Origin: an uncultured Planctomycetales bacterium
GTDB taxonomy: Bacteria; Omnitrophota; Gorgyraeia; Zapsychrales; JAHFFX01
Assembly: GCA_964464475.1 (NCBI GenBank)
Contig: CAYXGG010000008.1
Coordinates: 27,294 to 91,293, forward strand
Direction of reading: 5' to 3'
Length of the DNA: 64,000 nt
Shown: piece by piece, positions 1,023-22,100 of the stretch
Numbering within the stretch: position 1 is the first letter of the stretch
How the letters are laid out: each line of letters begins with the position of its first letter
Notes under the pieces: generated by a model
Told to the model about the DNA's origin: nothing
The model's input: the letters and a program-made list of their open reading frames with translations, nothing else
Databases searched by the model: none
Program-made: the position numbers and the translations under genes

Positions 1023-2681
1023 ATGAAAATAAGTTTCTTTGGATCAAGAAAGAATCAGCATTCTGCCGTTGACGAAGACCTTCGCCGGATTGGCATCGGT
1101 GATTGGGTGGCGTTGTATTACAATCTCTCGTTTGAATATTTGTTTCAGCATGAAACCGATCCCGCGCTGCAAGGTTATGAGCGGGGTGTCGTGACGGAAT
1201 TTGGCGCGGTGGCCGTAGACACGGGTAAATTCACCGGTCGTTCCCCCAAAGATAAATATATTGTGGAAGAAGTTAGCTCTCAGGATCACGTATGGTGGAC
1301 TAATAACCGGCCGGACGGGTCGGATAATAAACCCATTAGTCAGGCGACTTGGGACCATCTTAAGGCCATTTCCGTAAAACAACTGACGGGCAAAAAGCTT
1401 TATGTGATAGATGGCTTTTGCGGCACAAATCCTGCTACTCGCATTTCAGTACGTTTGGTCACTGAAGTCGCGTGGATGGCGCATTTTTTTAAAAACATGT
1501 TTATCCGTCCGGAAGGGGAAGAACTAAAAAATTTCCGTCCGGATTGGACGATCCTTAACGCTTGTAAGACCTCTTGCCCGGATTATGCGAAATATGGATT
1601 GCGTTCCGAAGTTTATGTGGCTTTTCATTTGGCGGAGCGCATGACCTGCATTGGCGGCACTTGGTACGGGGGAGAAATCAAAAAGGGTATTTTTTCGATC
1701 ATGAATTATTTTCTACCCTTAAAAGGAATTGGATCCTTTCATTGTTCAGCCAATAAAGGGGCTAAAGGCGATGTCGCGTTATTCTTTGGTTTGTCCGGAA
1801 CCGGTAAGACGTCATTATCCACCGATCCGAAGCGTCAGCTGATCGGAGATGATGAACACGGTTGGGACGCGGAGGGGGTTTTTAATTTTGAAGGGGGTTG
1901 CTACGCCAAGTGTATCAACCTTTCTAGAGAGAAAGAGCCCGGTATCTATGATGCCATTAAGGTCAACGCATTGCTGGAAAATGTGGTGGTTGATGATATT
2001 GGCAAAGTTGATTTTTCATCAGGGAAAAAGACTGAGAACACGCGGGTTTCATATCCGATTTTCCATATCGACAACATTGTCAAACCCGTTTCAAAAGGTG
2101 GCCATGCCCAAAACATTATTTTTCTTACCTGTGACGCTTTTGGTGTGTTGCCTCCTGTTGCTAAATTAACCCGCGAACAGGCGATGTATCATTTTTTAAG
2201 CGGGTATACCGCCAAAGTGGCTGGGACAGAATTGGGCGTTACGGAGCCCAAGGCTACTTTTTCTGCCTGTTTTGGGAAAGCTTTCTTGATGGTGCATCCT
2301 ACCAAATACGCGGAAATCCTTGGCCAGAAAATGGATGAGCATGGCGCCCAAGTGTATTTGATTAACACCGGGTGGGTGGGAGGCTCTTACGGTGTGGGGA
2401 AACGCATTCCGATTAAAGATAATCGAGTTTGTATTGATGCGATTCTGGATGGTTCGCTAGATCGCGGCGAGTTTGAGATTATGCCGGTATTCAATTTGCG
2501 TATTCCCAAATACGTTTTGGGCGCGCAAAGCGCTTTAAATCCTCGAGATTCTTGGGCGGACAAAGCGGCTTATGACGCGACGTTGCGTAAATTGGCGGCG
2601 ATGTTTGTGGACAATTTTCAGATATTCACCGATACTCCGAAGGGGAAAGCACTTCTTACGGCTGGTCCACAACTCACGTAG
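1023..2681 (+). CDS. pckA: phosphoenolpyruvate carboxykinase (ATP)
   Basis: Strong resemblance to ATP-type PEPCK (…[31 protein letters not shown]…, kinase-1a [13 protein letters not shown]). ATG at 1023 preceded by GGAGGG; the ORF track starts at an upstream GTG (987). Confidence 0.9.
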
Positions 2682-2707
2682 AGGATAACCTTGTATTCAG
2701 ATGCTTC

Positions 2708-2756
2708 CGCCCCCGGGTCAGTTCTGGTTCGGGGGCGTTTGTTTTTCTGTTTTGGA
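2708..2756 (+). terminator. rho-independent terminator downstream of pckA
   Basis: CGCCCCCG…(14-nt loop)…CGGGGGCG stem followed by TTTGTTTTTCTGTTTT. Confidence 0.6.
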
Positions 2757-2778
2757 AGTTTTCCGGAAATTTTTTTTG

Positions 2779-2787
2779 TGCTACAAT
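2779..2787 (+). promoter_or_regulatory. extended -10 element (TGnTACAAT) upstream of the dsbA-like operon
   Basis: tgtgcTACAAT about 40 nt upstream of the 2828 start; a GGGGAG SD follows. Confidence 0.3.
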
Positions 2788-2827
2788 ACGTTCCACATCA
2801 TCAACATAGAGACGGGGAGATACCATA

Positions 2828-3463
2828 ATGGCCAACGCATCAAAAAAGAATTTCACCATCTGTTTTGTTGTTTTCTGTGTGGTTCTTATTGTCGCCATCA
2901 ATTATTTTAAACAGCAGCTGGCCCCCAAGGTTCTGGTCAGCAATCAAGAGCGTTCTAAGGGTTCGGCGGCAGCTCCCGTAAAAATTACGGAATACATGGA
3001 TTTTCAGTGTCCTGCGTGCGCGCGGGGCGCCATTATGATCCGTCAATTTATGGCCGCTTATCCAGATAAGTTATTCGTAGAAATGAAACATTTTCCTTTG
3101 GAACAAATTCATCCTCACGCCGTACGCAGTTCCCGTTATGCTGAGTGCTCCGCTCGCCAGGGAAAATTCTGGCCCATGCATGATGTTTTAGTGGATAAGC
3201 AAAATGATTGGAAAGGGATGGTCAATGCCGATGTCTACTTCCAGCAGGTCGCCAAAGATATTAAACTGGATTTCTGGAAATTAGAATCCTGTTTGACCGA
3301 TGACAGTATAAAAAATTTTATTATGGCGGAGAAAACCGAAGGAGAAGCCCGTGGGGTCCAGTCCACGCCCACGTATTTCATTAACAATGAGATGGTGGTG
3401 GGAACGAAGTCTTTGGAAGAGAAGTTAACCAAATTGATTGGAGCCTTGCCATCCAAACCTTAA
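2828..3463 (+). CDS. DsbA-family thioredoxin-fold oxidoreductase, N-terminal membrane anchor
   Basis: CPAC active-site motif in a thioredoxin-like context (…EYMDFQCPACARG…); N-terminal hydrophobic segment FTICFVVFCVVLIVAI. Confidence 0.8.
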   Translation: MANASKKNFTICFVVFCVVLIVAINYFKQQLAPKVLVSNQERSKGSAAAPVKITEYMDFQCPACARGAIMIRQFMAAYPDKLFVEMKHFPLEQIHPHAVRSSRYAECSARQGKFWPMHDVLVDKQNDWKGMVNADVYFQQVAKDIKLDFWKLESCLTDDSIKNFIMAEKTEGEARGVQSTPTYFINNEMVVGTKSLEEKLTKLIGALPSKP

Positions 3464-3474
3464 TCGTCTTTCGT

Positions 3475-3903
3475 TTGTTAATTGGGTTGCTTTTTGTGGT
3501 CTCAGGGGGAGAGAAGGTCCTGAGTCCGTATCAAAACTTTTTGTATGTTGTCCAGAATTATGAAATGCTGCCAACTCTGGGGGAAGAACTGGTGGCGCGC
3601 CTATTCCCTTGGATCGAATTATTTTTAGGCCTTTTTCTATTGTTGGGTTTATGGCTTCCTTGGGCCTTACGCGGAACCGCGCTCATGCTCCTAACCTTTT
3701 TGGTCGTGGTGGGCCAAGCGATGTTAAGGCAATTACCTATCGGAGAATGCGGGTGTTTTGGTAAGTTGATTTCTTTACCGCTGCATGTGGTTTTTATTAA
3801 CGACAGTGTTATGTTGATCTTGATCGGGCTGATGTTGTGGCGGCCGCAGGCTGTGGCGAAATGTAGTCTCGATCATTATTTTTCCAGAACAGTAAAATCG
3901 TGA
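3475..3903 (+). CDS. DoxX-family integral membrane protein
   Basis: About 140 aa with four predicted TM helices typical of the DoxX/DoxD family; TTG/GTG start uncertain; 11-nt gap to the upstream gene. Confidence 0.65.
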   Translation: MLIGLLFVVSGGEKVLSPYQNFLYVVQNYEMLPTLGEELVARLFPWIELFLGLFLLLGLWLPWALRGTALMLLTFLVVVGQAMLRQLPIGECGCFGKLISLPLHVVFINDSVMLILIGLMLWRPQAVAKCSLDHYFSRTVKS

Positions 3904-5384
3904 TGAGATTTCTGGTTGGGGCTGGGTTATTTATTATGGGATTAACTTCTTTCGCTTTTGGTCAAACGCCCATCAAAGAGCCCAACGTTGCCGGCCAGTT
4001 CTATCCGGATAACGCGAAAGAATTAGCCTCCGAGATTGAGACCCATTTTGCGCTTTCCTCTCAGAAAGAATTGCAATCACCCGTAGAAGTCATGATCGCT
4101 CCTCACGCCGGTTACTTTTTCTCAGGCGGGGTCGCGGCGTATAGTTTTAAAGCGATTGCCCACAAGGCCTACAAGACGATCGTTGTTATTGCCCCGAGTC
4201 ATTTTTTTCCTTTTGAAGGAATCTCCGTTTGGCCGCAGGGTGGGTTTAAAACGCCGTTAGGGATCGTGTCGGTGGATGAAGAATTCGCCAGCCAACTATT
4301 AAAAGCCAGCCCGAAGTTTCAAAACATCCCAAAAGTTTTTGACCGGGAGCACGCCTTAGAAGTCGAACTGCCTTTTTTGCAACAGACTTTTAAGGATTTC
4401 AAAATTGTTCCGATTTTGATGGGTCAACCCAATGTTGAGGTCTGCCAGAATTTGGCGCGAGCGCTCGATCAGATTATCGGAAAGCGCGATGATGTTTTGA
4501 TTGTGGTCTCTACCGATTTGTCGCACTATCACCCCGATGAGGTGGCTCGCCAGATGGATCAGCGTACTTTAGAGGCGATCGCAGCCCTTAAATCCGATGA
4601 TTTTTGGCAGGAAAATTTAACCGGAACTATGGAAATGTGCGGGTTTACGGGTGTCATGACCGCGTTGCTGTACGCGCAATTAAGGCATTTAAAACCGGAA
4701 GTGCTTAAATATGCCAATTCTTCGGAGGCGTCGGGAGATAAGAATCGGGTTGTTGGTTACAGCGCCGTTGCTTTTTCTCGCGATGCAACGTCTGGCGCGG
4801 TTGACAAAGATTCGGATCTTGACGCGGCCTTAGCCAGCCATCAGAAAAAACGTTTATTGCAGATTGCTCGGGAGACTGTGCAGACTTTTGTGACGACGGG
4901 CAAAGTTCCGAATGTGACGGAAGATGACGCGCGTCTAAAAACCAGGGAAGGCGCTTTTGTGACTTTGCGTAAACATGGCGAACTACGGGGTTGCATTGGA
5001 CACATTATCGGTCGACAGCCGTTGTATCAAACGGTCCGCGATATGGCCGTCGCCGCGGCTTCACAGGATTCGCGTTTTGATTCGGTATCGGTGGCGGAAT
5101 TATCAGACCTAGAAGTGGAAGTTTCCGTCTTGTCCGTACCTCAGGTCATCACCAATCCGAATGAAATCGAGCTAGGTAAACATGGGGTGATTGTCAGTCA
5201 GGGGCCTTTTCGCTCCGGCCTATTTTTGCCGCAGGTCGCGACCGAAACCGGTTGGGATAAAGAAACATTTCTTTCCGTTCTTTGTACTCAGAAAGCGGGG
5301 CTACCCGCGCAAGCCTGGAAAGATCCCAAGACCCGCTTGGAGATTTTTACAGCCGATGTGTTTTCTGAGAAAGACGTTCCCTAG
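3903..5384 (+). CDS. fusion of MEMO1-like (AmmeMemoRadiSam system protein B) and AMMECR1 domains, with predicted N-terminal signal peptide
   Basis: Memo signatures AGQFYP, IAPHAGYFFSG, STDLSHYHP; C-terminal AMMECR1 signature ELRGCIGH; N-terminal MMRFLVGAGLFIMGLTSFAFG-QT looks like a Sec signal; start codon overlaps the DoxX stop (TGATG). Confidence 0.85.
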   Translation: MRFLVGAGLFIMGLTSFAFGQTPIKEPNVAGQFYPDNAKELASEIETHFALSSQKELQSPVEVMIAPHAGYFFSGGVAAYSFKAIAHKAYKTIVVIAPSHFFPFEGISVWPQGGFKTPLGIVSVDEEFASQLLKASPKFQNIPKVFDREHALEVELPFLQQTFKDFKIVPILMGQPNVEVCQNLARALDQIIGKRDDVLIVVSTDLSHYHPDEVARQMDQRTLEAIAALKSDDFWQENLTGTMEMCGFTGVMTALLYAQLRHLKPEVLKYANSSEASGDKNRVVGYSAVAFSRDATSGAVDKDSDLDAALASHQKKRLLQIARETVQTFVTTGKVPNVTEDDARLKTREGAFVTLRKHGELRGCIGHIIGRQPLYQTVRDMAVAAASQDSRFDSVSVAELSDLEVEVSVLSVPQVITNPNEIELGKHGVIVSQGPFRSGLFLPQVATETGWDKETFLSVLCTQKAGLPAQAWKDPKTRLEIFTADVFSEKDVP

Positions 5385-5392
5385 CGACGCCT

Positions 5393-5872
5393 ATGAGTGA
5401 ATCCGCCCGCCCGGTATCCCGCATACACAAACTTCGCAACTTCGGTATTTCTCTTTTTGTCATTCTTTGGACGCTTTACTTTCACTATCACTCCGTTCGG
5501 CATTTTTATCTTGAGCCATGGTTGCAGCGGTCTTTGCCGGCGCCAAAATGGCTGTTCCCGCCGGCCGGCTGGATTATGTTTTATAACGTGAATTATTCGT
5601 ATGGATTCGCTGAAGTTTACGGGATAAAAGAGAAACGTTTGGAGAAAATTGATCCGCATTTAATCCTTAGAACGAGAGCGGTCGGCTATGACAATATTAA
5701 ACGCAATGTGTTGACCATGGTGTTGACGCCAAGTCTCAAGGAGCCGTTTTGCGGTTTTCTGAAAAAACGCCTTCCGCATTATGAAGGCTATTGGGTCACA
5801 TACGTGCAGTATTCCGATTTAAAGAATCATCCCCAGCAGGCGTATCGGCAGCTGGTTTACGAGTGTCGCTAA
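5393..5872 (+). CDS. hypothetical single-pass membrane protein
   Basis: ATG 8 nt after the previous stop; one N-terminal TM helix; no recognisable domain; stop overlaps the next start (TAATG). Confidence 0.5.
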   Translation: MSESARPVSRIHKLRNFGISLFVILWTLYFHYHSVRHFYLEPWLQRSLPAPKWLFPPAGWIMFYNVNYSYGFAEVYGIKEKRLEKIDPHLILRTRAVGYDNIKRNVLTMVLTPSLKEPFCGFLKKRLPHYEGYWVTYVQYSDLKNHPQQAYRQLVYECR

Positions 5873-7167
5873 TGAAGAAACTGTGGAATCGATTATTTTT
5901 GGAGGAACGCCCGTCGCTAGGGTTGGCATTTTTTCGCATCGCCGCCGCGCTGACTGTCGGGTTGCACGTGATTCCATCCTTCTTTCATCTGGGCGATAAT
6001 TATTTTGCCGGAGCCCTGAAGGAGATAAACCCTAATTTTTTTCCGGTGGGGGCGATACGCTGGGTTCAGTCTAGTCCCGATATCGTGGTGGGAGGGATGG
6101 TCGTCGTTTTTCTGGTTGCTTGGTTTTGTTTTTTGATTGGTTTTCTGACCCAAGCCAGTTGTATCGTGCTGCAATTGGCCAGCTATTATTTCTACGCGTT
6201 AAATTCTTTTCATATCGGGACGCTGTCCTGGGACATTCTGCTGGTGACCATGTTTTTGTTGTGTTTAACTCCTTACCCGGGGGATTATTTCTCGATTGAT
6301 GCGTTGCGTGGTGCTGACCCTAATGCTTATCGCCGGATGCGGCCGATTTTTATTCAGCGGCTGTTGCAAATGCAAATCGCGTCCACTTTTTTTTATACCG
6401 CGCTTTATAAAGTGACCGCGCAGGGTAATTGGTTGACCGGAAACCCGATCCACGCGCTGATGAATTATCCTCCTGAGGGGGTGACGAAATGGTTTCTTTT
6501 GAAGGAATACTTAGCCGTACATCCGGATCTTTGCTACGGGATTGGATTATTGATTGTCGTGATTGAACTGTTGATGCCGGTATTGCTGTTTTGGCCGAGG
6601 ACAAGACAGAGCGCGATAATACTTGGTTTTTTGTTCCATGTCGGTTTGGTTTGGACACTGGATGTGCCGACCATTTTCTTTTTTTTGTTCCCGGCCCAGT
6701 TGCTGCTTTTTATTAATTCTAAAGATATCGTCAATTGGATTGAAATCCAACGTCAAGAGAATGCCCGCTTACGTCTCTGGCATTTGTTGTATGACGGCCA
6801 GTGCCATTTTTGCCGCAATAGCGTGCGCCTGTTAAAAACGATGGATATGTTCAACGTCGCGGAGTTGATTAATCTTCACGATGTACCTGATTTCTCTGCA
6901 GATTTTCCCGGGTTGACTCGCGAGGCCGCCTTAAGTCAGATGCATCTGGTTGATGGGCAAGGGAGGGTATTTGCCGGCTTCGCGGCGTTACGCAGACTGT
7001 CTTGGCGGATCCCCATGCTAACGATGCTGATGCCGTTGTTATATTTCCCTGGTACGGGAATTGTCGGGCCCTGGGTGTATGGTTGGGTTGCAAAAAACCG
7101 ATATGTGTTTCACGCTAATTCTGTTTGCGAAAACAACGCTTGTTTCCGTCGTTCCATAAAAAAGTAA
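5872..7167 (+). CDS. HTTM (vitamin-K-dependent gamma-carboxylase-like) multi-pass membrane domain fused to a C-terminal DCC/DUF393 thiol-disulfide oxidoreductase domain
   Basis: N-terminal HTTM signature (…SLGLAFFRIAAALTVG… plus multiple TM helices); C-terminal DUF393 signature LLYDGQCHFCRNSVRLL…AKNRYVF; ATG at 5872 (MKKLWNRLF) in TAATG overlap. Confidence 0.85.
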   Translation: MKKLWNRLFLEERPSLGLAFFRIAAALTVGLHVIPSFFHLGDNYFAGALKEINPNFFPVGAIRWVQSSPDIVVGGMVVVFLVAWFCFLIGFLTQASCIVLQLASYYFYALNSFHIGTLSWDILLVTMFLLCLTPYPGDYFSIDALRGADPNAYRRMRPIFIQRLLQMQIASTFFYTALYKVTAQGNWLTGNPIHALMNYPPEGVTKWFLLKEYLAVHPDLCYGIGLLIVVIELLMPVLLFWPRTRQSAIILGFLFHVGLVWTLDVPTIFFFLFPAQLLLFINSKDIVNWIEIQRQENARLRLWHLLYDGQCHFCRNSVRLLKTMDMFNVAELINLHDVPDFSADFPGLTREAALSQMHLVDGQGRVFAGFAALRRLSWRIPMLTMLMPLLYFPGTGIVGPWVYGWVAKNRYVFHANSVCENNACFRRSIKK

Positions 7168-7230
7168 AGATTCGTTTTGGTTCATCCCCACTTCGTAGTA
7201 CGATACATTGAATTTAAACTTAAGGAATTT

Positions 7231-8574
7231 ATGCGGAAAAAAATAATATTTCTTTTTGTATTTTTGAACACGCTAGCTTTGCTTTCAATGGGTGGCGCTA
7301 AGGCGTATGTTTCGGATAATTTGATTGCTTCTAACAACGGCCAAAGCAAAGAGTTAACTCAAAAAGTGGCGCTGATGTATGAAGAAGCCAATCAGTATTT
7401 TATGGCCAATCAGCAAGAAGAGGCGCTGCGACTTTTTAAGAAAATAGAAAAACTCCTTCCCGATTATAAATCCACGCGAAATTACATAACTTTCTTAACG
7501 GCAAAGAAAACGGAGAACGTTCGTCTGGCCGAGGCGCGAGCGATTGTGTCTCCCCCCAAGGAGCGCGTTAGTGTCGCGCAGGCAGAAAATTTGGCCGAGT
7601 CTGTTCGTCGAGAAAAACAACAATCCTTGAGCGCTCTGCCATCGGCTGACGTAGAGGTAACGTCTCCAGAGCCAGCTCCGGTGACGACGATGTTTCCTTC
7701 AAATTCGTCCGCTGACGCTGGTCACCCAAATTCAGATTCGGCCATGAACGCTACCTATGTCCAGGCAAGTTCGCGAAAAAATGAATTGGTTCAGGAAAGC
7801 GCTGAATTGCAAAAGGATTTTTACCGAGGCATCGCTAATCTGTATGAGCGCGGAGAAAAATATTTCAATGAAGGAAGATTAGGGCAGGCGCGACTCATTT
7901 TTGATCAGATTAATGAACTGGCTCCCGGTTTTAAACAAACGAATTCTTATTTGGAAAAGCTGGCTAACGCAAGTTGGGATGATGATTTAGATTTGCCGGC
8001 GGCCGTATCTTGGACCGATACTGTCGGCGCTCAGCCATCCGGAAAGAAAGTTTCGCGTTTTGATTTGGAGAGTCTTTATGCTTATGCTGTTCATTTGTAT
8101 CAAAGTGAACGATTGGTGGATGCTAAGCAGAAATTTATCGAGGTCGCTGAGATTGATAAGGATTATAAGTTGACCCAACGCTATTTAGGATTGTTAGGTG
8201 CTCGCTCTCCTGATAGTGTGCCGGAGGTAACTGAAATGCCAGAAACACCTGCGGATCTTTCGGGAGATCCGCGCGCCCAAAAGCGGGCTCTGAAGGCTCG
8301 ACAACGTGAGGAAAAATTGGCGCAACAGCAGAAGATGCGCGATGAGAAGAAAGCGCGTAAGGAAGCTCTGAAGGCGTTAAATCAGGAAGAGATGAAGAAA
8401 GAGTTGGATGATCTGTATGTCGAGGCGATCCAGCTTTTTGGAGAGCGAAAATTTGATGAGTCAGAAAAACGATTTAATCAAGTGCTCTTAATCAAGCCGG
8501 GATACAAGAATTGTCATCATTATTTGAAAATGATTGTGGGAGAAAGGGCGTTGACGCGTCCCTCTCAGGACTAA
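7231..8574 (+). CDS. secreted repeat protein (TPR-like; four copies of an approximately 34-aa motif ending P-x-YK-x-T-x-x-YL)
   Basis: Signal peptide MRKKIIFLFVFLNTLALLSMGGAKA; internal repeats …LPDYKSTRNYITFL / …APGFKQTNSYLEKL / …DKDYKLTQRYLGLL / …KPGYKNCHHYLKMI; Lys/Arg/Glu-rich coiled segment. Confidence 0.6.
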   Translation: MRKKIIFLFVFLNTLALLSMGGAKAYVSDNLIASNNGQSKELTQKVALMYEEANQYFMANQQEEALRLFKKIEKLLPDYKSTRNYITFLTAKKTENVRLAEARAIVSPPKERVSVAQAENLAESVRREKQQSLSALPSADVEVTSPEPAPVTTMFPSNSSADAGHPNSDSAMNATYVQASSRKNELVQESAELQKDFYRGIANLYERGEKYFNEGRLGQARLIFDQINELAPGFKQTNSYLEKLANASWDDDLDLPAAVSWTDTVGAQPSGKKVSRFDLESLYAYAVHLYQSERLVDAKQKFIEVAEIDKDYKLTQRYLGLLGARSPDSVPEVTEMPETPADLSGDPRAQKRALKARQREEKLAQQQKMRDEKKARKEALKALNQEEMKKELDDLYVEAIQLFGERKFDESEKRFNQVLLIKPGYKNCHHYLKMIVGERALTRPSQD

Positions 8575-8586
8575 GGGAGGATTAAG

Positions 8587-8925
8587 ATGAAAAAGATACT
8601 GCTTGCCATTTTTTTGTTGTTGCTGTTGGGTTCGCCGCTGGCCATAGCTCAGCCGCCATCTGATATTGAACTGAGTTTCAATCAGGAGTCAAAAGTTCTT
8701 TCGATAAAAGTCCTGCATGTTTCGCAACGTAACCGAGATCATTATATTCGTCGGATTTGGGTGTATTTGAACGATCAAGAAGTCGTTAAGGACGGTTTTG
8801 CCGCTCAGGAACCTTGGGGAATCGCACACGATGTCAAAGTGGAAGCGAAGTCAGGTGATGTGATTCGCGTGGTGGCCAAGTGTTCCAAAGCCGGCGAGAC
8901 GACACAGACTTTGCAAATTCCGTAA
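8587..8925 (+). CDS. small secreted protein with degenerate superoxide-reductase (desulfoferrodoxin Fe-binding)-like domain
   Basis: Signal peptide; [19 protein letters not shown] resembles the SOR HPM…EEHYIEWIEL block and a Cys sits at the SOR-equivalent position, but the N-terminal His and the C-x2-H His ligand are absent. Confidence 0.45.
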
Positions 8926-9011
8926 GGGTTTGTAAATTTCTTTTTTTGAATTTTTTGTTTTTGGCATTATTAATCTTTTTTCCCTCGTCGCTTGACGCTC
9001 ATCAAGATTTT

Positions 9012-11135
9012 ATGACCCAGCCAGCCTTGAATCGCCTTTCGCAAGAAAAAAGTCCTTATCTTTTGCAGCACGCGGAGAACCCCGTTGATTGGTATCCTTG
9101 GGGACCGGAAGCTTTCGCCAAAGCTAAAAAAGAAAATAAACCGATACTGTTATCTATCGGTTATTCCACGTGTCATTGGTGCCATGTCATGGCGCATGAG
9201 TCGTTTGAGAATCCTGACATCGCGCGTTTGATGAATGAATATTTTGTTGCGATTAAAGTGGATCGCGAAGAACGACCGGACATTGATCAGGTTTATATGA
9301 CCGCGGTGACCGCTTTAAGCGGGCAAGGAGGCTGGCCGCTCACCGCTTTCTTAACACCCGACCAGAAGCCGTTTTACGGCGGAACCTATTTTCCTCCTGA
9401 ACCGAAATGGGGATCTCCGGGATTTCGTCAAGTTTTGGAATCTATTCATTCCGCCTGGGTCAATCAGCCCGAACAGGTTTCTAAATCCAGCGCGTCACTC
9501 CTTAAGTTTTTGCAAGAACAAGCCAAGCCAACTCCTGCCGCTGAACCGCTCGGGCGGGATGTCCTGACTGCCGCGTATTCAACCTTCGTCGCTAATTTTG
9601 ACGAACGTTATGGCGGATTCGGGTCGCACCCTAAGTTTCCTTCGGCGCATAATCTATCCTTTTTATTGCGTTTTAGTCAGGGATCAGCGAAATCTGAAGC
9701 GCAAGCTATGGCCGAACTAACGTTACAGGCTATGGCGAAAGGCGGTCTCTATGACCACTTAGGCGGCGGGTTTCATCGATATTCAACGGATGAAAGATGG
9801 CATGTTCCACATTTTGAGAAAATGTTATATGACCAAGCCACGCTGGTCATCGCGTATTTGGAAGCGTATCAGTTGACTGGCTTGCCAGCGTATGCTCGGG
9901 TGGCTCGAGAGGTGCTGGATTATGTCGCGCGGGATTTGCGATCGCCGGAAGGGGGCTTTTTTAGCGCGGAAGATGCGGATAGTTTGCCGGTAGAAAATGG
10001 ACACGAGAAGAAAGAGGGCGCTTTTTACATTTGGAGCGCCAAAGAGCTAGATGCTTTGCTGGGCAAAGACGCGATCGTTAATAAATATTATTTTGGCGTT
10101 GAACAAGAAGGGAACGCACTTTCAGATCCGCATGGAGAATTTATTGGTCAAAATATTCTTTTTGTCGCGCGAACCGTCGAGCAAACGGCACAATTTCTAA
10201 ATTTGGAGGTGGCGGAAGTTGAGGCGGCGCTGACTCGTTCGAAGCAACTTCTTTTCTTGCATCGCCAGCGACGTCCCCGGCCGCACCTGGATGATAAAGT
10301 ATTGACGGATTGGAATGGGTTGATGATTTCCGCGTTTGCGTTGGGCGGTCGGGTGCTGGACGAGTCTAAGTATACGGACATTGCTGAGGCGGCGGCGAAG
10401 TTTGTTTTGAGCAAATTGTTGAAGCCGGATGGGGAACTGTTGCATCGCTACCGCGATCAGGAAGCGGCGATTAGAGGCACATTGACGGATTATGCTTTTT
10501 TGACGCAGGGTTTGCTGGATTTGTATCCGGCCACCCTGAATGTGACCTACTTAACTCAGGCGATCGCCTTAACCCACCGTCAGGTGACTTTATTCTGGGA
10601 CGCTGCGGCGGGAGGTTTTTTTATGACAGCGCAGAACGCCGAGCCATTGATTATTCGGCAGAAAGAAGTGTACGACGGGGCTCTGCCATCGGGTAACTCG
10701 GTGGCCGCGCTTAATTTGTTACGGTTGTATGCGCTCACGCTGAATTCTTTTTGGCGTGATAAAGCTGATGCGACTCTTGAAGCTTTCGCGGCTCCTGTTC
10801 GGCAACATCCCGCTGGTTATGGTCAAATGTTGATGGCTTTGGATTATAAATTGGGACCATCTCGGGAAATTGTGCTTTCCGCGAAAGACATGAATCCGGA
10901 AGTAAGAACATGGTGGCATTTTTTAATGACGGGATTCTTTCCGCGTACGGAATTTCTTTTTTATGATCTTTCGGCTCAAGGATCCGCTTCGTTAGTTTCG
11001 CTAGCGCCTTTTGTTAAGGATCAACCTCCCTTAGAAGGGCGTCCCACGGTTTACGTCTGTGAAAACCACGTTTGTCAATTACCGGTTCAGGGTTTAGAGA
11101 AGTTACGTCAGGTATTGATGAGCCCTCAACCGTAA
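9012..11135 (+). CDS. DUF255 thioredoxin-domain protein (YyaL/SPATA20-like; thioredoxin domain plus N-acylglucosamine-2-epimerase-like alpha/alpha barrel)
   Basis: Signature …[22 protein letters not shown]…; first ATG at 9012 (MTQPALNRL). The ORF extends upstream to 8880 and encodes a signal-peptide-like stretch, so the true start is uncertain. Confidence 0.8.
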
Positions 11136-11257
11136 AGAGAGCCAAAGCCTTCCCGAAAGTTAAATTTGTGCTTTTGGGGGATTTCAGTTATTATTGAACC
11201 GGAAATTTCAAATCAACTTTTTAAAGCTGACTCCATTGATAAGGAATCAAATAGGAT

Positions 11258-12106
11258 ATGGAAAAACTCCTCGGTGGTATTCTCATCGCTGTCATTGTTC
11301 TCGGTTTTGGCACGGCTTTCTTGAATGACCCTGAATTTGCTAAACAATTTTCATTGCGGAACATTTTGACGTCAATCGGAATTTTTCGGGCTGATTCGGA
11401 TCGTCAGGAACTAGTCAGTAGATCTCGAACCGATGTCACCCAGTTTATGGAGCGCTACAAAGATATCGTGGCCCAGCAGCAAACCATGATGGAAACCCTC
11501 AAGGATCGTAATGATCAAATATTAGAAGATTTACAAAGTCGCCTGGAGCAGAGCCGCCAGCAGCAAGCCCAGACTTCTGACGCGACACAAAACCTCGCCC
11601 GCCGCTGGGAAGATACCGTTGCTCACACTAAAGCCATGAATGATCAGTTGCTACAAAATATGAAAGACCAAATGGTTTCTAATATGTTGGCACGCGAGGG
11701 GCGGGTTGATCCGCAGGAATTAATGCAGCGACAGAATCAAGTCCTGGCGGATACTCAGCAACGGATGAGTCAGTTAATGGATAATATGCGCGATAAAATG
11801 GAACAGGTGGAAGAGACCCGCCAGTTGATCAAAAATTCGGAAGCCATGTGGCAACGTCAACGAGAAGTAATTCAGGAAATCAACAACCGCAACGAGCAGT
11901 TAATGCAGGACATTCAGTATAAAATGGCTGAGCAGCGTCAGCGCAATGAGGACGCTATGGCCGCAGTGCGTGAGAAACAAGAGCAGACCACTCAGCGAAA
12001 TCAGGACCAGATGGAGCGCCTTCAGCGGGACCGAGAGCGGTCCGAAGACATGCAGCGCCGGCTTCGTGACCAGATTGAGGCCCAGCGGGCACGCGCTGGC
12101 TATTAG
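11258..12106 (+). CDS. membrane-anchored Gln/Arg-rich coiled-coil protein
   Basis: N-terminal TM helix, then a long heptad-like Q/R/E/M-rich region; no catalytic motifs. Confidence 0.5.
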   Translation: MEKLLGGILIAVIVLGFGTAFLNDPEFAKQFSLRNILTSIGIFRADSDRQELVSRSRTDVTQFMERYKDIVAQQQTMMETLKDRNDQILEDLQSRLEQSRQQQAQTSDATQNLARRWEDTVAHTKAMNDQLLQNMKDQMVSNMLAREGRVDPQELMQRQNQVLADTQQRMSQLMDNMRDKMEQVEETRQLIKNSEAMWQRQREVIQEINNRNEQLMQDIQYKMAEQRQRNEDAMAAVREKQEQTTQRNQDQMERLQRDRERSEDMQRRLRDQIEAQRARAGY

Positions 12107-15573: not shown

Positions 15574-16416
15574 ATGGGAATAATTTCCGATGCTTTAAGT
15601 AAGCAGTCTGACAGTCCGGAATCACAACCCAAAAGTTCAACGGGCGCGCAGTCTTTCAAAACTCCTCCGTCCACTACGGACAAAAAAAGCGTGGCTTCAA
15701 CTCAGGTAGCTAATGTCGCGGGGATTATTCTATTCGTCATGATGATTGGCTTGACTGTTTATGCTTTGCGGGAACAAAGAGACATTTATGAAAGTCTATC
15801 CCGTTCGAATAAGTTGATGCAGCAGTCAACAGCTGAGCAAGCTGGTTTGTACCAGAATTATGTTTCCCTTTATCAGAAGAAAGAGTCGGAATTAGATCGT
15901 ATTTCGCGAGAACTTGCGGTAGCGCAGCAGTCATTAAACCAAACTCAGTCACTGGTCGCGGATTTGCGGAATACCAACCAGTCTCTGGAATCGCAAATGG
16001 TCGCTTTGAAAGAAGCTGCCGCTGCTTCTGCGGCTAGCCTGAATGCCCAGGCGGGAGAGATTTCGGATAAAATTAAGACGAGCTTAGACGCTAATGAAGT
16101 TAAAGCCTTGCAAGACATCAAGGCGGCTTCGGACGGCCAAGCAATGATTGATAGTTTTAAAGAAAAAATTAAATTCGTGAAACAGAAAATTTCTGAAATT
16201 CGACGCCAAGAAAAATTGATTACCAAAGAGAACCAAAAGCAGTTGGATTTGGTCGCTTTGGAAAATGGCAATCAAGGCTTTTTGGCCAAAGATGGTCAAT
16301 GGAAAACTGCGGTAGATGGCTCAGCGATTGCCCAGGGGGTAACCCCGGTTTCGGCCGAAGTGCAAACGGCTACGGGTAACAAAGTGGATATTAACGTTCG
16401 CTTTATTGAAAAATAG
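15574..16416 (+). CDS. hypothetical membrane-anchored coiled-coil protein
   Basis: S/T/P-rich N-terminus, one TM helix, coiled-coil remainder; SD AAGGAG. Confidence 0.5.
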   Translation: MGIISDALSKQSDSPESQPKSSTGAQSFKTPPSTTDKKSVASTQVANVAGIILFVMMIGLTVYALREQRDIYESLSRSNKLMQQSTAEQAGLYQNYVSLYQKKESELDRISRELAVAQQSLNQTQSLVADLRNTNQSLESQMVALKEAAAASAASLNAQAGEISDKIKTSLDANEVKALQDIKAASDGQAMIDSFKEKIKFVKQKISEIRRQEKLITKENQKQLDLVALENGNQGFLAKDGQWKTAVDGSAIAQGVTPVSAEVQTATGNKVDINVRFIEK

Positions 16417-19175: not shown

Positions 19176-22100
19176 ATGTCGACCCAAGAATCACTTTATC
19201 AGTTAAATCACGACGGATCGTTTGTGATTCGTCAGTATAACCGCGCCAAACCTTTTAGTAATTTTTTTCCCGGTATCGCCGGTGTCTGGGGAACGCCTAT
19301 GTGGGTGTTTTACACGAATCGCGGTCAGGCCATCTCCAGTTTTGGGATAGAAAGCAAGGACAAGGCCATCTGTGAATTTCAACCGGCCAATAAAGCTTTT
19401 CGTCAAACCAGCTTGCATGGCTTTCGAACTTTTTTGAAAATCAGTTCCGCTGGAAAAGCGATCACGCTGGAACCCTTCCAGGATCAGGAGTTAGCCCTAT
19501 CTTCTAAAAAGAAACAGCAGCTAACCATCAATTCTCATGACTTGACACTAAGTGAACACAATTTGCAGGCGGGGATCCAAGTTGACGTGAATTATTTTAC
19601 GTTGCCGGAAGAACCCACTGCAGCGTTAGTTCGGCGGCTCACGATTAAGAATATTTCTCGAAAAGCACAAACCTTGGAAATAGTAGATGGATTACCCATG
19701 ATGGTTTGTTTTGGGATCAACGAGTGGGCGTTGAAGAACATGTCGCGTACCGTGGAGGCCTGGATTGTTGTCGATAATTTGCCAAAGAAAGCTCCTTATT
19801 ATCATCTTAAGGTGGACATCGCTGATAAACCTATTGTGGAGCCGATTACGGAAGGGAATTTTTACTTTGCTTTTGTATCTGGAAGCCGTGAGGGAAAATT
19901 GTTGGATCCCATTATTGAAGCGTCCAAGGTTTTCGGTGCTTGTCAGGATTATCAAATCCCTCAGGCTTTCTGGGCGGCGAACACCTATTCGGTTCCCAAA
20001 ATTCAATTCGCCTCAAATAGGACGCCGTGCGCGTTTAGTTTTCATAAAACGACCTTAAAACCCGGGCAGAAGGTTGAGATTATTTCTTTGGCTGGCTACG
20101 CGGCTAGTATTCAGGATTTAAATTCTTTTGTCGAGAAAGCTACGCGTCGAGGTTATGTCGAGCAAAAAGCTCAACGGAATCAGGAAATCATTCAGGAAAT
20201 TAAGAATTTTACTTTGACTAAAAGCGCGTCATCGGCTTTTGACGCCTACGCCGGTCAAACGTTTCTGGACAATGTCTTACGCGGTGGCCTTCCCGTGTCG
20301 TTAGCGGTGGGAGATTCTAAAGTGGCTTTTAATGTGTATAGCCGTAAACATGGGGATCCGGAAAGGGATTATAATTATTTTCTGCTTTCGCCAACTAACT
20401 TTTCTCAAGGTAACGGTAATTACCGCGACGTTAATCAGAACCGGCGCAGCGATGTCTGGTTCAATCAAGATGTTAAAGACGCGCACATCATTAATTTTTT
20501 AAGTCTGAGCCAAGCGGACGGATATAATCCTCTGGTCGTCAAAGGATTGTCTTTCTCCGTCGTGGATAAGGCCAAGGTAATATCGTTACTGTCGGGGCAC
20601 CTCAAAAAAGATGAAGAGCAGGAAAGAGTTTTGAAGTTCCTGGATAATCCTTTCCAGCCCGGTGAACTACTGCGCTTCATCACGCAAAACAAAATTGGGC
20701 TCAAAAAATCTTTGTCGCAGTTTTTGGGTGATATCTTGACTGTTTGTCAGAAAAATGAGGCGGCTGATCATGGAGAAGGGTTTTGGGTGGATCACTGGCA
20801 GTATAATTTGGACATGATTGAAAGTTATTTGGCCGTTTATCCGGAATCTTTGAAGGATTTGTTATTAGGAAAGAAGTCATTCACGTTTTTTCATAATGCG
20901 CATTATGTTTTATCTCGTGATGAACGGTATGTCCTGACTCCCGAGGGCGTGCGTCAATATCATTCGGTCAAAGACGCTCGTAAGGAAATTAAAACAGTTC
21001 ATAAAGATAATCGTTTGAGAGTCAAACATGGCGAGGGGCATATTTATCATACCCATTTGCTGGCGAAATTGTTGGTTTTGGTCGCGAGCAAAGCCGCGAC
21101 CCTAGATCCGGATGGAATCGGAATTGAAATGGAAGCGGACAAGCCGAGTTGGTATGACGCGCTTAACGGCTTACCGGGCTTGTTGGGCTCTTCGATTTGC
21201 GAAACCTTTGAATTAAAGCGACTGGCGAAATTTCTATTAAATGCGTTTGAGGCGGTGCAACTTAATGACCAGGACCCCGTGGAAATTTTTGTAGAGCTCG
21301 CTGTTTTTGTTCGTGGTTTACTCGAAGCGTTACGGCATCGCACGGACGCTTTAATCTATTGGGACCGCTCGAATGAAATAAAGGAGCAATACCGGGAAAA
21401 AGTCCGTTTGGGATTAGATGGCCATGAAGAGGAGATTTCTATCGGCGACATCAAAGAATTCTTACGGTTGCTGATTGATCGAATTGACGAAGGGATTGCG
21501 AAGGCTAAGGGCAAAAATGGTCTTTTTGCCACGTACTTTGCTTATGACGTGATTGAACATGAACCGCTGGAAAAAAAGCAAGCCGATGGTCGTCCTTTTA
21601 TCTGGCCGCTAAAATTTAAACGGCATGATTTGACGCACTTTTTGGAAGGATTTGTGCACGGGTTGAAAGTGGAAGATGATCCGACTCAGGCCCGTCAGCT
21701 CTATAACGCGGTGCGGCAAAGCGCGTTATTTGATAAAAAACTTAAGATGTATAAGGTGAATGCTGATTTGCGAAAGGAATCACAGAATATTGGTCGCTGC
21801 CATGTCTTTCCCGCGGGATGGCTAGAAAATGAGTCGGTGTGGTTGCACATGGCATATAAATATTTATTGGAAATCTTTCGAGCTGGGTTGTATGCCGAAT
21901 TTTTTGCGGATTTCAAAACGTCGCTGGTGCCGTTTTTGAATCCGAATGTTTATGGCCGTAGCATTTTGGAGAATTCTTCGTTTATTGTGAGTAGCGCCCA
22001 CGAAGATCCGTCTTTGCATGGTCAAGGATTTGTCGCGCGGTTAAGCGGCAGTACCGCGGAGTTTCTGCAATTGTGGTTATTGATGAACGTGGGGACCAAT

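What the first reader, a model, noticed from the sequence alone, without database searches (positions are those of the whole stretch)
5872..7167. HTTM domain fused to a DCC/DUF393 thiol-disulfide oxidoreductase
A single 431-aa ORF joins a multi-pass HTTM domain (homologous to vitamin-K-dependent gamma-glutamyl carboxylase) to a C-terminal DUF393 domain carrying the diagnostic YDGxCxxC motif (YDGQCHFCRNS) and the conserved C-terminal …AKNRY.F block. A disulfide-exchanging module directly attached to an HTTM core hints at a redox-coupled reaction, by analogy to the quinone/epoxide chemistry of VKGC. The function is not known for any bacterium.
Basis: partly seen in the sequence, partly recalled or inferred. 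Interest (0 to 1): 0.62.

Follow-up and report, generated by a model that had tools for sequence, protein, structure and literature searches.

The report
Two-part bacterial vitamin-K-carboxylase-like membrane enzyme
The ORF is a real fusion of a vitamin-K-carboxylase-like membrane domain to a thiol-redox domain; this architecture is already common in databases, and here it always sits behind a small unannotated partner gene and usually beside an exported Memo/AMMECR1 gene, with its chemistry and substrate still unknown.

Summary
Window 5872-7167 (+) encodes one 431-aa protein with a Pfam HTTM domain (aa 18-282) and a DCC1-like/DUF393 domain (aa 305-412, YDGQCHFC, AKNRYVF). It is not a frameshift artefact: more than 100 homologues and 80 species-level MAGs, mostly Candidatus Omnitrophota, have the same fused length.

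The AF2 model (pLDDT 87) matches human GGCX. hhalign maps K180 to the catalytic Lys218, and also W187=W223, E232=D263, F255/H256=F286/H287 and F269=F299. The Glu-binding residues N159/H160 and also N290 are not kept.

The architecture is not new. About 55 distinct 50%-identity clusters carry it, and an August 2026 preprint models HTTM-DCC plus an adjacent DUF5819 protein as a GGCX-like complex.

- An unannotated 159-aa single-TM partner gene (5393-5872, TAATG overlap) lies upstream in every locus that has upstream sequence (82/85).
- An exported Memo+AMMECR1 fusion is adjacent in 66/85 loci, in three different gene arrangements.
- Inferred topology puts the DCC CxxC in the cytoplasm, across the membrane from K180. 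Any redox coupling must therefore be indirect.
- DCC is optional in related clades.

The substrate and chemistry remain inferred. This is a new variant of a known but uncharacterised kind, of moderate interest.

The parts
5872..7167 (+). HTTM-DCC fusion gene, 431 aa. The HTTM domain is nt 5923-6717 and the DCC1-like domain is nt 6784-7107.
   Evidence: ORF; Pfam; AF2 pLDDT 87.1 and pTM 0.85; the top 15 Foldseek PDB hits are all human GGCX
6409..6411 (+). Codon for K180, the equivalent of the GGCX catalytic base Lys218. W187, E232, F255, H256 and F269 are nearby.
   Evidence: hhalign of A3 against human GGCX; conservation counts; coordinates checked
6790..6813 (+). YDGQCHFC, the DxxCxxC redox motif of the DCC domain (C311, C314)
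   Evidence: The CxxC is kept in 62/62 close and 24/25 diverse fusions.
7126..7143 (+). C-terminal CENNAC, a second Cys pair (C419, C424) in a tail that is disordered in the model
   Evidence: Kept in 61/62 clade members and in 15-18 of 25 diverse fusions; pLDDT below 50
5393..5872 (+). Partner gene, 159 aa. It has a positively charged N-terminus, one TM helix, an invariant LFPPAGWIMF loop (nt 5552-5581) and a small alpha/beta domain with invariant C120 and C158. Its stop codon overlaps the ATG of the fusion gene (TAATG).
   Evidence: Sequence; 250 homologues with no Pfam annotation; immediately upstream in 82/85 loci; AF2 pLDDT 85.8
3900..5384 (+). Exported Memo + AMMECR1 fusion (AmmeMemoRadiSam system proteins B and A) with an N-terminal signal peptide
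   Evidence: Pfam and NCBIfam; within 6 kb in 66/85 loci in three different arrangements; a signal-peptide-like segment in 61/63 orthologues
3475..3903 (+). MauE/DoxX-type membrane protein with a CGC motif
   Evidence: Pfam; present in 50/85 loci, always collinear; a DoxX gene lies downstream instead in L001/L002
2828..3463 (+). Membrane-anchored DsbA-like thioredoxin (CPAC at aa 61), probably the first gene of the operon
   Evidence: Pfam; present in 49/85 loci; a 13-bp-stem terminator at 2708-2737 and a promoter-like site at 2801-2829 lie just upstream
7177..11135 (+). Downstream, tightly packed genes: a TPR protein (7177-8574), a small secreted 112-aa protein (8587-8925) and a DUF255/thioredoxin-domain protein (8880-11135). 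They may be co-transcribed, but their association with the pair is weaker.
   Evidence: Pfam; co-occurrence in only 10-16 of 85 loci; no strong terminator between the genes

Best explanation
The gene encodes the large subunit of a two-subunit, GGCX-like membrane enzyme.

The 8-TM HTTM core keeps the quinol-activating site of vitamin-K-dependent carboxylase. That site consists of Lys180 as the base, Trp187 stacking on it, Glu232, Phe255/His256 under the ring, and Phe269. It faces the periplasm.

The translationally coupled upstream 159-aa protein would supply the missing ninth TM helix and a small periplasmic cap. Its invariant LFPPAGWIMF loop would close over the quinone pocket. This role corresponds to GGCX residues S398-W-D-M-M402 and to DUF5819 residues L59/F60 in the published model.

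By analogy with GGCX and MloH, the complex would oxidise a membrane quinol with O2. This would generate a strong base that deprotonates a C-H acid in an unknown periplasmic or membrane substrate. That substrate is not a Glu of the GGCX type.

The DCC domain sits on the cytoplasmic face. It is an optional accessory that would use its CxxC dithiol, possibly fed through the C-terminal Cx4C pair by cytoplasmic Trx/Grx, to re-reduce the spent quinone or epoxide. That would be a VKOR-like recycling role, or possibly gating of the enzyme.

Shown here: domain identity, fold, residue conservation, gene coupling, and topology by inference. Inferred only: quinol/O2 chemistry, partner docking, the role of DCC, and the substrate.
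For: - Identity: Pfam finds both domains above their gathering scores.
- Fold: Foldseek places human GGCX structures in ranks 1-15 (E 5e-7 to 3e-4, TMq about 0.5 over about 300 columns).
- Active site: hhalign of the family against human GGCX gives probability 98.9% and E 2e-17, with K180=K218, W187=W223, E232=D263, F255=F286, H256=H287 and F269=F299. Across 25 diverse fusions the counts are K 25/25, W 24/25, E 22/25, H 20/25 and F269 21/25. The roles of these GGCX residues are taken from PMC12647623 and PMC13486548; the latter reports that D263E retains 25% activity.
- Partner: it lies immediately upstream in 82/85 loci, and the other three loci are cut at their 5' end. Gaps are mostly -8 to +17 nt. 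Distant HTTM-DCC and HTTM-only genes also have an abutting upstream single-TM ORF, and most of these carry [SG]WxMF.
- Published precedent: an AF3 model of DUF5819 plus HTTM-DCC resembles whole GGCX, with menaquinol placed near the conserved Lys, Trp and Phe (bioRxiv 10.64898/2026.08.19.745780).
- Topology: 8 TM helices followed by a polar helix at 283-300, basic loops on the predicted inner side, and GGCX having 9 TMs with a cytoplasmic TM8-TM9 loop.
- Thiol supply: glutaredoxin or a pyridine-nucleotide disulfide oxidoreductase lies next to the pair in loci that lack the main cluster.
Against: - Nothing here is biochemical.
- I had no model coordinates and no complex prediction. Partner docking and the distance from the CxxC to the membrane were therefore not tested.
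- The partner has no significant sequence or fold match to the GGCX C-terminal half, to PDB or to Pfam DUF5819. The profile comparison with the DUF5819-like partner family is only suggestive (P 0.009, probability 4.5%).
- The equivalents of N159/H160, W157 and N290 are not conserved, so carboxylation itself is unsupported.
- DCC lies across the membrane from K180 and is absent from many related HTTM+partner loci. It is therefore not part of the core chemistry.
- Quinone biosynthesis is patchy in Omnitrophota and many members are anaerobes (PMC10066038). An O2/naphthoquinol mechanism may not apply.
Confidence: 0.45

Rival explanations
1. The partner/HTTM-DCC pair and the exported Memo+AMMECR1 fusion work on the same target. 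With or without the DsbA-like and MauE/DoxX proteins, they would form one periplasmic redox pathway. In this reading the HTTM complex modifies the Memo/AMMECR1 protein or that protein's substrate. The thiol modules on both membrane faces would recycle the quinone, making a self-contained cycle like the vitamin K cycle.
For: - Memo+AMMECR1 lies within 6 kb in 66/85 loci. It is upstream on the same strand in 52 loci, convergent downstream in 10 and divergent upstream in 4. In the rearranged cases it is mostly the immediate neighbour.
- 61/63 orthologues carry a signal-peptide-like N-terminus, which puts them on the same side as K180.
- The DsbA-like plus MauE/DoxX pair is collinear in 49-50 of 85 loci, and a DoxX gene lies downstream in L001/L002.
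- A strong terminator just before the DsbA-like gene and tight gene spacing are consistent with one operon.
Against: - The linkage is restricted to the Omnitrophota-type clade. The distant HTTM-DCC loci L086 and L087 lack it.
- About 10 loci with at least 4 kb of flank on both sides have no Memo/AMMECR1 gene.
- Most of the collinearity could be inherited synteny among related genomes.
- No known function of Memo or AMMECR1 points to a substrate, and the literature search found none.
Confidence: 0.2
2. The HTTM core is not an oxygenase in this lineage. The protein would be a thiol-driven quinone or electron conduit, or a redox sensor. The cytoplasmic DCC dithiol would pass electrons to a bound quinone, and from there to periplasmic cysteines such as C120/C158 of the partner or the DsbA-like protein. 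This would resemble DsbD/CcdA or a reversed VKOR/DsbB.
For: - The CxxC is kept in 24/25 diverse fusions. In this clade there are also a second C-terminal Cys pair and two invariant Cys in the periplasmic part of the partner.
- The neighbourhood is rich in thiol-redox genes: DsbA-like, MauE/DoxX, DUF255 and Grx.
- Many Omnitrophota are anaerobes, which argues against O2-dependent epoxidation.
Against: - The residues that are conserved are those of the GGCX quinol-deprotonation and CO2 site: K, W, E, H and F.
- HTTM+partner pairs exist without any DCC domain, so the thiol module cannot be the core function.
- No transmembrane Cys pair is conserved across the family. C97, C104, C131 and C221 are specific to this clade.
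Confidence: 0.15
3. The pair is an SdpA/SdpB-like maturation or export system for a secreted peptide toxin.
For: - SdpB-family proteins are related to HTTM proteins. A distant HTTM-DCC protein (L087) gives a weak SdpB-family hit of 30 bits against a cut-off of 178.
- From my own knowledge, not checked here: SdpB works with a small protein, SdpA, encoded upstream of it.
Against: - The window protein and its partner give no hit to the SdpB or SdpA NCBIfam models even at E up to 10.
- No SdpC-like or other small secreted peptide gene is conserved next to the pair.
- SdpB-type proteins lack the DCC domain.
Confidence: 0.05

Closest known systems
HTTM-DCC1-like protein plus adjacent DUF5819 protein, modelled for Melghirimyces thermohalophilus A0A1G6IBF2/A0A1G6IAS5 in bioRxiv 10.64898/2026.08.19.745780 (August 2026)
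   Same: The large subunit has the same two-domain architecture: HTTM of about 240 aa followed by DCC1-like of about 110 aa, 431 against 447 aa in total. An adjacent gene encodes a small protein with an N-terminal TM helix. The Lys and Trp of the quinol site are conserved. A hydrophobic pair about 60 residues into the partner (M62/F63 here, L59/F60 there) fits the residues said to contact the quinone pocket.
   Different: Pfam DUF5819 does not recognise the partner here even at E up to 10, and it has no PDB fold match. The large subunit is only 23-29% identical to the members of other clades that I sampled. This clade adds a linkage to an exported Memo+AMMECR1 fusion and to DsbA-like/MauE genes. 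That system is itself only a structure prediction, with no biochemistry.
[quoted passage not shown]
   Same: The fold of TM1-8 matches. Equivalents of K218, W223, D263 (as Glu), F286, H287 and F299 are present. The inferred topology also matches, with the N-terminus inside and the catalytic Lys at the outer face.
   Different: This chain has no TM9, TMD-PBD linker or lumenal propeptide-binding/Arch domains. The Glu-binding residues N159/H160 and also N290 and W157 are not kept. A cytoplasmic DCC domain occupies the position of the GGCX TM8-TM9 loop. The missing parts may be supplied by a separate, much smaller protein.
MloH, the Streptomyces HTTM carboxylase of malonomycin biosynthesis (Law et al. 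2018, as cited)
   Same: It is a bacterial HTTM enzyme that acts on a non-Glu substrate. It shows that the GGCX-type base generator has been reused in bacteria.
   Different: MloH is a single chain in which the HTTM region is fused to a region corresponding to DUF5819. It lies in a biosynthetic gene cluster and has no DCC domain. No PKS/NRPS context exists here.
Giant-virus VKOR plus truncated GGCX-like epoxidase modules (PMC13486548)
   Same: A GGCX-like core keeps K218 and an acidic residue at position 263 but lacks the carboxylation-specific region. It is paired with a thiol-based quinone-recycling partner.
   Different: In the viruses the recycling partner is a genuine VKOR membrane protein and the core is fused to or next to a sterol desaturase. 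Here the candidate recycler is a soluble-type Trx-fold DCC domain on the cytoplasmic side.
Stand-alone DCC/DUF393 proteins such as B. subtilis YuxK and Arabidopsis DCC1
   Same: The full-length Pfam match (profile positions 1-109 of 113), the DxxCxxC motif and the C-terminal P...PG...G...Y.WVA.NR block are all present.
   Different: Here the domain is tethered to a membrane enzyme, and in this clade it carries an extra C-terminal Cx4C pair. The cellular function of the stand-alone proteins is also poorly defined.

Membership tests
HTTM domain family (Pfam PF05090) | Match to the family profile above the curated threshold | tested here: met
   52.2 bits against a gathering score of 27.7, covering aa 18-282 and profile positions 9-256 of 259
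HTTM domain family (Pfam PF05090) | Multi-pass fold of the GGCX transmembrane domain | tested here: met
   The AF2 model has 8 TM helices. Foldseek PDB ranks 1-15 are all GGCX, with probability 1.00.
DCC1-like / DUF393 thiol-disulfide oxidoreductase (Pfam PF04134) | Profile match above the threshold together with the DxxCxxC motif | tested here: met
   72.7 bits against a gathering score of 27.8. D308-G-Q-C311-H-F-C314 is present. The CxxC is kept in 62/62 and 24/25 sequences.
DCC1-like / DUF393 thiol-disulfide oxidoreductase (Pfam PF04134) | Thioredoxin/glutaredoxin-like fold | tested here: inconclusive
   The secondary-structure order beta-alpha-beta-alpha-beta-beta-alpha fits. The glutaredoxin matches are weak: Foldseek E about 1.3 with TMt about 0.42, and profile against PDB E 1.1.
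DCC1-like / DUF393 thiol-disulfide oxidoreductase (Pfam PF04134) | Thiol-disulfide exchange activity | not testable with these tools
   This needs a redox assay of the purified domain.
[quoted passage not shown] | Catalytic base Lys218 with its supporting residues W223 and D263 | tested here: met
   K180, W187 and E232 align to them and are conserved.
[quoted passage not shown] | Glutamate-binding residues N159, H160 and Y395 | tested here: not met
   N159/H160 align to T117/L118, and these positions vary across the family. The Y395 region is absent from this chain.
[quoted passage not shown] | TM9 plus the lumenal propeptide-binding and Arch domains in the same polypeptide | tested here: not met
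   The alignment with GGCX ends at residue 318, and the C-terminal part of this chain is a DCC domain. The partner family shows no significant similarity to GGCX residues 347-729 (my numbering from the +53 offset set) or to any PDB fold.
[quoted passage not shown] | Quinol- and O2-dependent epoxidation coupled to carboxylation | not testable with these tools
   This needs an enzyme assay.
HTTM-DCC plus DUF5819 two-protein system (2026 preprint) | HTTM followed by DCC1-like in one membrane protein | tested here: met
   The same architecture is found in about 55 of the 150 best 50%-identity cluster representatives (my count from that table).
HTTM-DCC plus DUF5819 two-protein system (2026 preprint) | An adjacent gene for a small protein with an N-terminal TM helix | tested here: met
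   The gene at 5393-5872 overlaps the start of the fusion gene and is present in 82/85 loci. AF2 gives a long N-terminal helix at residues 10-44.
HTTM-DCC plus DUF5819 two-protein system (2026 preprint) | The partner belongs to Pfam DUF5819 (PF19136) | tested here: not met
   No hit even at E up to 10. Partners of distant clades reach only sub-threshold scores of 21-23 bits against a gathering score of 27.1. The profile-profile comparison with those partners is only suggestive: P 0.009, with a collinear alignment.
HTTM-DCC plus DUF5819 two-protein system (2026 preprint) | The two proteins form a GGCX-like complex | not tested
SdpB / SdpA antimicrobial-peptide maturation system (NCBIfam TIGR04033 for SdpB) | Match to the SdpB-family and SdpA-family models | tested here: not met
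   Neither window protein gives a hit at E up to 10 or at E up to 0.01.

The most novel reading that the evidence does not exclude
In Omnitrophota the cluster 2828-7167 would encode a self-contained pathway like the vitamin K cycle. A two-subunit GGCX-like quinol oxidase/base generator (partner plus HTTM) would modify the co-encoded exported Memo+AMMECR1 protein, or that protein's substrate, in the periplasm. The quinone would be recycled by thiol modules on both membrane faces: the cytoplasmic DCC domain, and the periplasmic DsbA-like protein with MauE/DoxX. This would give a first biochemical context to both bacterial HTTM-DCC proteins and the long-unexplained AMMECR1/MEMO family.
Probability: 0.1. 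Interest if true: 0.8.

Novelty: new variant of a known kind. Interest (0 to 1): 0.5.

Why it matters
HTTM enzymes use a quinol and O2 to make an unusually strong base. Outside animal blood-clotting biology only one bacterial example, MloH, has a known substrate.

HTTM-DCC fusions are widespread in bacteria and none has a known function.

This locus adds three testable handles:
- A compulsory small partner subunit that current domain libraries do not recognise.
- A topology that puts the thiol domain on the opposite side of the membrane from the catalytic lysine, which constrains any recycling model.
- A repeated linkage to an exported Memo+AMMECR1 fusion, which could be a route into the unknown function of that family, conserved from bacteria to humans.

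If the pair were expressed and shown to turn over a quinol, it would extend vitamin-K-type chemistry to an uncultured phylum.

Tried and rejected
Searches that found nothing or were rejected:
- Sequence searches of PDB with the protein and with the family profile found no GGCX. Only the fold search and hhalign showed the relationship.
- NCBIfam gave no name for the fusion or for its partner, so SdpB/SdpA membership is rejected.
- The idea that the partner is homologous to GGCX TM9, linker and lumenal domain was tested by hhalign (probability 0.4%) and by Foldseek against PDB (no hit with E below 0.2). It is not supported beyond the short GW.MF / SWDMM motif.
- The idea that the partner belongs to DUF5819 was tested by hmmscan, by an HMM built from the family, by hhalign against single distant partners and by hhalign against a 56-sequence alignment of distant partners. 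The result is suggestive only.
- A frameshift or mis-assembly origin of the fusion is rejected on the basis.

Technical limits:
- The search for related loci with the diverse alignment A3 failed because no stretch was conserved enough.
- The profile search with distant fusions returned only 13 proteins.
- PMC12701776 is not held.
- The wider window holds unrelated housekeeping genes: GGDEF, PEPCK, AsmA-like, NUDIX and others.
- Counts of promoter-like and terminator-like sites do not exceed the shuffled controls. Only the 13-bp-stem terminator at 2708-2737 was used.
Full report
**1. Observation**

The window carries a maximal ORF at 5791..7167 on the + strand. The N-terminal consensus of homologues (MxKxWxRLFLEERPS) supports this start.

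Pfam finds two domains above their gathering scores:
- HTTM (PF05090), aa 18-282, 52.2 bits.
- DCC1-like/DUF393 (PF04134), aa 305-412, 72.7 bits, covering profile positions 1-109 of 113.

YDGQCHFC lies at nt 6790-6813 and AKNRYVF at nt 7090-7110.

It fails:
- The best 120 hits in the 5.8-billion-protein collection all cover 97-100% of the query at 52-63% identity, and most are 410-470 aa long.
- 80 loci from species-representative genomes carry the same single ORF.
- AlphaFold2 models the whole chain confidently, with pLDDT 87.1 and pTM 0.85.

The source organism is almost certainly a Candidatus Omnitrophota MAG. The related loci are nearly all labelled Omnitrophota. A minority are labelled Planctomycetales, Elusimicrobia or Verrucomicrobia.

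**2. The HTTM half**

Sequence searches of PDB found nothing. The model's 15 best Foldseek matches are all human gamma-glutamyl carboxylase (E 5e-7 to 3e-4, probability 1.0, about 300 aligned columns).

I recovered the human sequence and its numbering from PDB. I then aligned a 25-member alignment of diverse HTTM-DCC fusions to it with hhalign. The result was probability 98.9% and E 2e-17, with our residues 11-288 matching GGCX 57-318.

The mapping is:

| This protein | Human GGCX | Role in GGCX |
|---|---|---|
| K180 | K218 | catalytic base |
| W187 | W223 | stacks on the lysine |
| E232 | D263 | acidic neighbour of the lysine |
| F255 / H256 | F286 / H287 | F286 lies under the naphthoquinone ring |
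| F269 | F299 | stacks on CO2 |

The roles are taken from PMC12647623. D263E is reported to keep 25% activity (PMC13486548).

Conservation across the 25 diverse fusions is K 25/25, W 24/25, E 22/25, H 20/25 and F269 21/25. All five are 60-62 of 62 within the clade.

The residues that hold the substrate glutamate (N159, H160), and also W157 and N290, are not conserved.

The quinol-activating half of the GGCX active site is therefore retained. The Glu-specific half is not.

**3. The DCC half and where it sits**

The DxxCxxC motif is kept in 62/62 close and 24/25 diverse fusions. The secondary-structure order fits a Trx/Grx fold. The matches to glutaredoxin structures are weak.

The model has eight TM helices: 16-37, 70-89, 93-110, 117-130, 160-182, 218-240, 242-262 and 268-280. 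A polar helix at 283-300 follows, and then the DCC domain.

Basic residues cluster at the N-terminus, in loop 131-159, at W241-PRTR and after TM8. Human GGCX has nine TMs, a cytoplasmic N-terminus, K218 at the lumenal face and a basic cytoplasmic loop between TM8 and TM9 (and the sequence).

By collinearity, K180 faces the periplasm and the DCC domain is cytoplasmic. This is an inference, because I had no model coordinates. It means the CxxC cannot touch the quinol site directly.

In this clade a second Cys pair (CENNAC, aa 419-424) sits in a disordered tail. It is kept in 61/62 clade members and in 15-18 of 25 diverse fusions.

In a distant subgroup sampled from metagenomes there were 35 fused loci. 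Another 24 loci were HTTM-only, with at least 600 nt of downstream sequence and no DCC ORF. One locus had a separate DCC ORF. DCC is therefore an accessory rather than part of the core.

**4.

The ORF at 5393-5872 (159 aa) ends in TAATG, sharing one base with the start of the fusion gene. It has these features:
- a basic N-terminus followed by one long helix (residues 10-44);
- an invariant LFPPAGWIMF loop, which is low-confidence in the monomer model;
- a small alpha/beta domain with invariant C120 and C158.

It has 250 homologues. All are unnamed and none has a Pfam domain.

It lies directly upstream in 82 of 85 loci, and the other three loci are cut off at their 5' end. The gaps are mostly -8 to +17 nt.

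Distant HTTM-DCC genes (29% and 23% identity) also have an overlapping upstream single-TM ORF. So do 67 of 80 metagenome loci of another subgroup, the rest being truncated. Most of those partners carry [SG]WxMF. That motif resembles human GGCX S398-W-D-M-M402, whose M401 contacts both K218 and the quinone.

An August 2026 preprint models a DUF5819 protein together with an adjacent HTTM-DCC protein as a GGCX-like complex. In that model the partner's TM helix replaces one GGCX helix and L59/F60 touch the vitamin K pocket.

Membership of the partner here in DUF5819 is not shown:
- There is no Pfam hit at E up to 10.
- Partners of distant clades reach only 21-23 bits against a cut-off of 27.1.
- hhalign between the two partner families gives P 0.009 and probability 4.5%. 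The low-stringency alignment is collinear through the TM helix, the GW.MF motif and the C-terminal helix and strand.
- There is no significant match to the GGCX C-terminal half or to any PDB fold.

I read the partner as a fast-evolving counterpart of DUF5819. Its homology to DUF5819 is unproven.

**5. Neighbourhood**

A strong terminator (2708-2737) and a promoter-like site precede a run of tightly packed + strand genes:

| Coordinates | Gene product |
|---|---|
| 2828-3463 | DsbA-like thioredoxin |
| 3475-3903 | MauE/DoxX membrane protein |
| 3900-5384 | Memo+AMMECR1 fusion with a signal peptide |
| 5393-5872 | partner |
| 5872-7167 | HTTM-DCC |
| 7177-8574 | TPR protein |
| 8587-8925 | small secreted protein |
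| 8880-11135 | DUF255 thioredoxin-domain protein |

Across the 85 loci the Memo+AMMECR1 gene is within 6 kb in 66. It is upstream on the same strand in 52, convergent downstream in 10 and divergent upstream in 4. In the rearranged cases it is mostly the immediate neighbour. 61 of 63 orthologues have a signal-peptide-like N-terminus.

The DsbA-like/MauE pair occurs in 49-50 loci, always in the collinear arrangement. Its linkage could therefore be inherited synteny.

Loci without this cluster show instead glutaredoxin plus an aldo-keto reductase upstream and DoxX downstream (L001, L002, L031), or a pyridine-nucleotide disulfide oxidoreductase (L076).

The rest of the window that I scanned is unrelated housekeeping.

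**6. Mechanism**

My best-supported reading has confidence about 0.45 for the mechanism. I am much more confident of the identity of the domains.

- The complex is a two-subunit GGCX-like enzyme whose periplasm-facing site activates a membrane quinol with O2. This would make a strong base acting on a non-Glu substrate.
- The partner completes the pocket.
- The cytoplasmic DCC domain is an optional thiol module that recycles the quinone or epoxide, or gates the enzyme.

Shown: domains, fold, residue conservation, gene coupling and inferred topology. Inferred: the chemistry, partner docking, the DCC role and the substrate.

The main counter-evidence is as follows:
- Residues specific to carboxylation are missing.
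- The CxxC is on the opposite side of the membrane from K180.
- DCC is dispensable in related clades.
- Quinone biosynthesis and aerobic respiration are patchy in Omnitrophota (PMC10066038).

The rivals are a joint pathway with the exported Memo/AMMECR1 protein (0.2), a thiol-driven quinone or electron conduit or sensor without oxygenase chemistry (0.15), and an SdpAB-like peptide system (0.05; no model hits).

**7. Comparison with known families, and novelty**

The protein is a bona fide member of the HTTM and DCC1-like Pfam families. It is not a GGCX orthologue: the Glu-binding residues and the lumenal domains were tested and are not met. It is not SdpB.

The architecture is already common. 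The exhaustive search found 1996 cluster representatives at E up to 1e-3. By my count from that table, about 55 of the best 150 span both domains. Public sources label such proteins 'DUF393 domain-containing protein' or 'predicted DCC family thiol-disulfide oxidoreductase YuxK'. The two-protein system has been proposed in the 2026 preprint.

The finding as stated is therefore a member of a known but uncharacterised kind. The Omnitrophota-type system is a variant of it for three reasons: its partner is unrecognised by domain libraries, it is linked to an exported Memo+AMMECR1 fusion, and it carries an extra C-terminal Cys pair.

Interest is moderate (0.5). A specialist would not be surprised by the fusion itself. 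The partner, the topology constraint and the Memo/AMMECR1 linkage do make an open question experimentally approachable.

Noticed in passing
window 3900-5384 (+), and orthologues in L003-L085: The Memo+AMMECR1 fusion (AmmeMemoRadiSam system proteins B and A) carries a Sec-type signal peptide (VMRFLVGAGLFIMGLTSFAFG/Q). 61 of 63 orthologues have a similar hydrophobic N-terminus. From my own knowledge, such proteins are normally cytoplasmic and paired with a radical SAM enzyme. No radical SAM gene appeared among the window genes I scanned with Pfam (2828-11135, plus the ten ORFs). I did not search for one in the other loci.
   Followed up: partly
window 2828-3463 and 3475-3903 (+): A membrane-anchored DsbA-like thioredoxin (CPAC at aa 61) is followed directly by a MauE/DoxX membrane protein with a CGC motif. 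The pair looks like a possible DsbA/DsbB-type or VKOR-type disulfide system. It is collinear with the HTTM pair in about 50 of 85 loci.
   Followed up: partly
window 8587-8925 (+): A small secreted 112-aa protein has a weak, sub-threshold resemblance to the desulfoferrodoxin (superoxide reductase) domain (E 0.11). Its homologues occur in 15 of the 85 loci, in most cases next to a DUF255 thioredoxin-domain gene.
   Followed up: no
window 8880-11135 (+): A large DUF255/Thioredox_DsbH protein (751 aa as listed) overlaps the end of the preceding ORF by about 45 nt if the GTG at 8880 is used. The true start is probably further downstream, after which the sequence looks like a signal peptide ([16 protein letters not shown]).
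   Followed up: no
L001/L002 (4168-5524, 7337-7768) and L031 (4053-5454): An alternative conserved arrangement around the partner/HTTM-DCC pair has glutaredoxin and an aldo-keto reductase upstream. In L001/L002 a DoxX gene follows downstream, then type II secretion pseudopilin-like genes; L031 also has a pseudopilin-like gene downstream.
   Followed up: partly
window 2708-2737 (+): A 13-bp-stem, GC-rich hairpin followed by a T-run lies just after the PEPCK gene (987-2681). It is the only convincing intrinsic-terminator-like site in 2500-11500 and marks the likely start of the redox operon.
   Followed up: no
window 19176-22460 (+), 11258-12106 (+) and 15574-16416 (+): Three sizeable ORFs (1094, 282 and 280 aa) have no Pfam match at E up to 1e-4.
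   Followed up: no
L091-L170 (metagenome loci of a distant HTTM subgroup): Many HTTM proteins that are 35-45% identical to the fusions of that subgroup lack the DCC domain entirely but keep the abutting upstream partner ORF with an SWDMF-type motif. Pfam DUF5819 recognises only a few of these partners, and only below threshold. The Pfam model therefore seems to cover just part of a much larger partner superfamily.
   Followed up: partly
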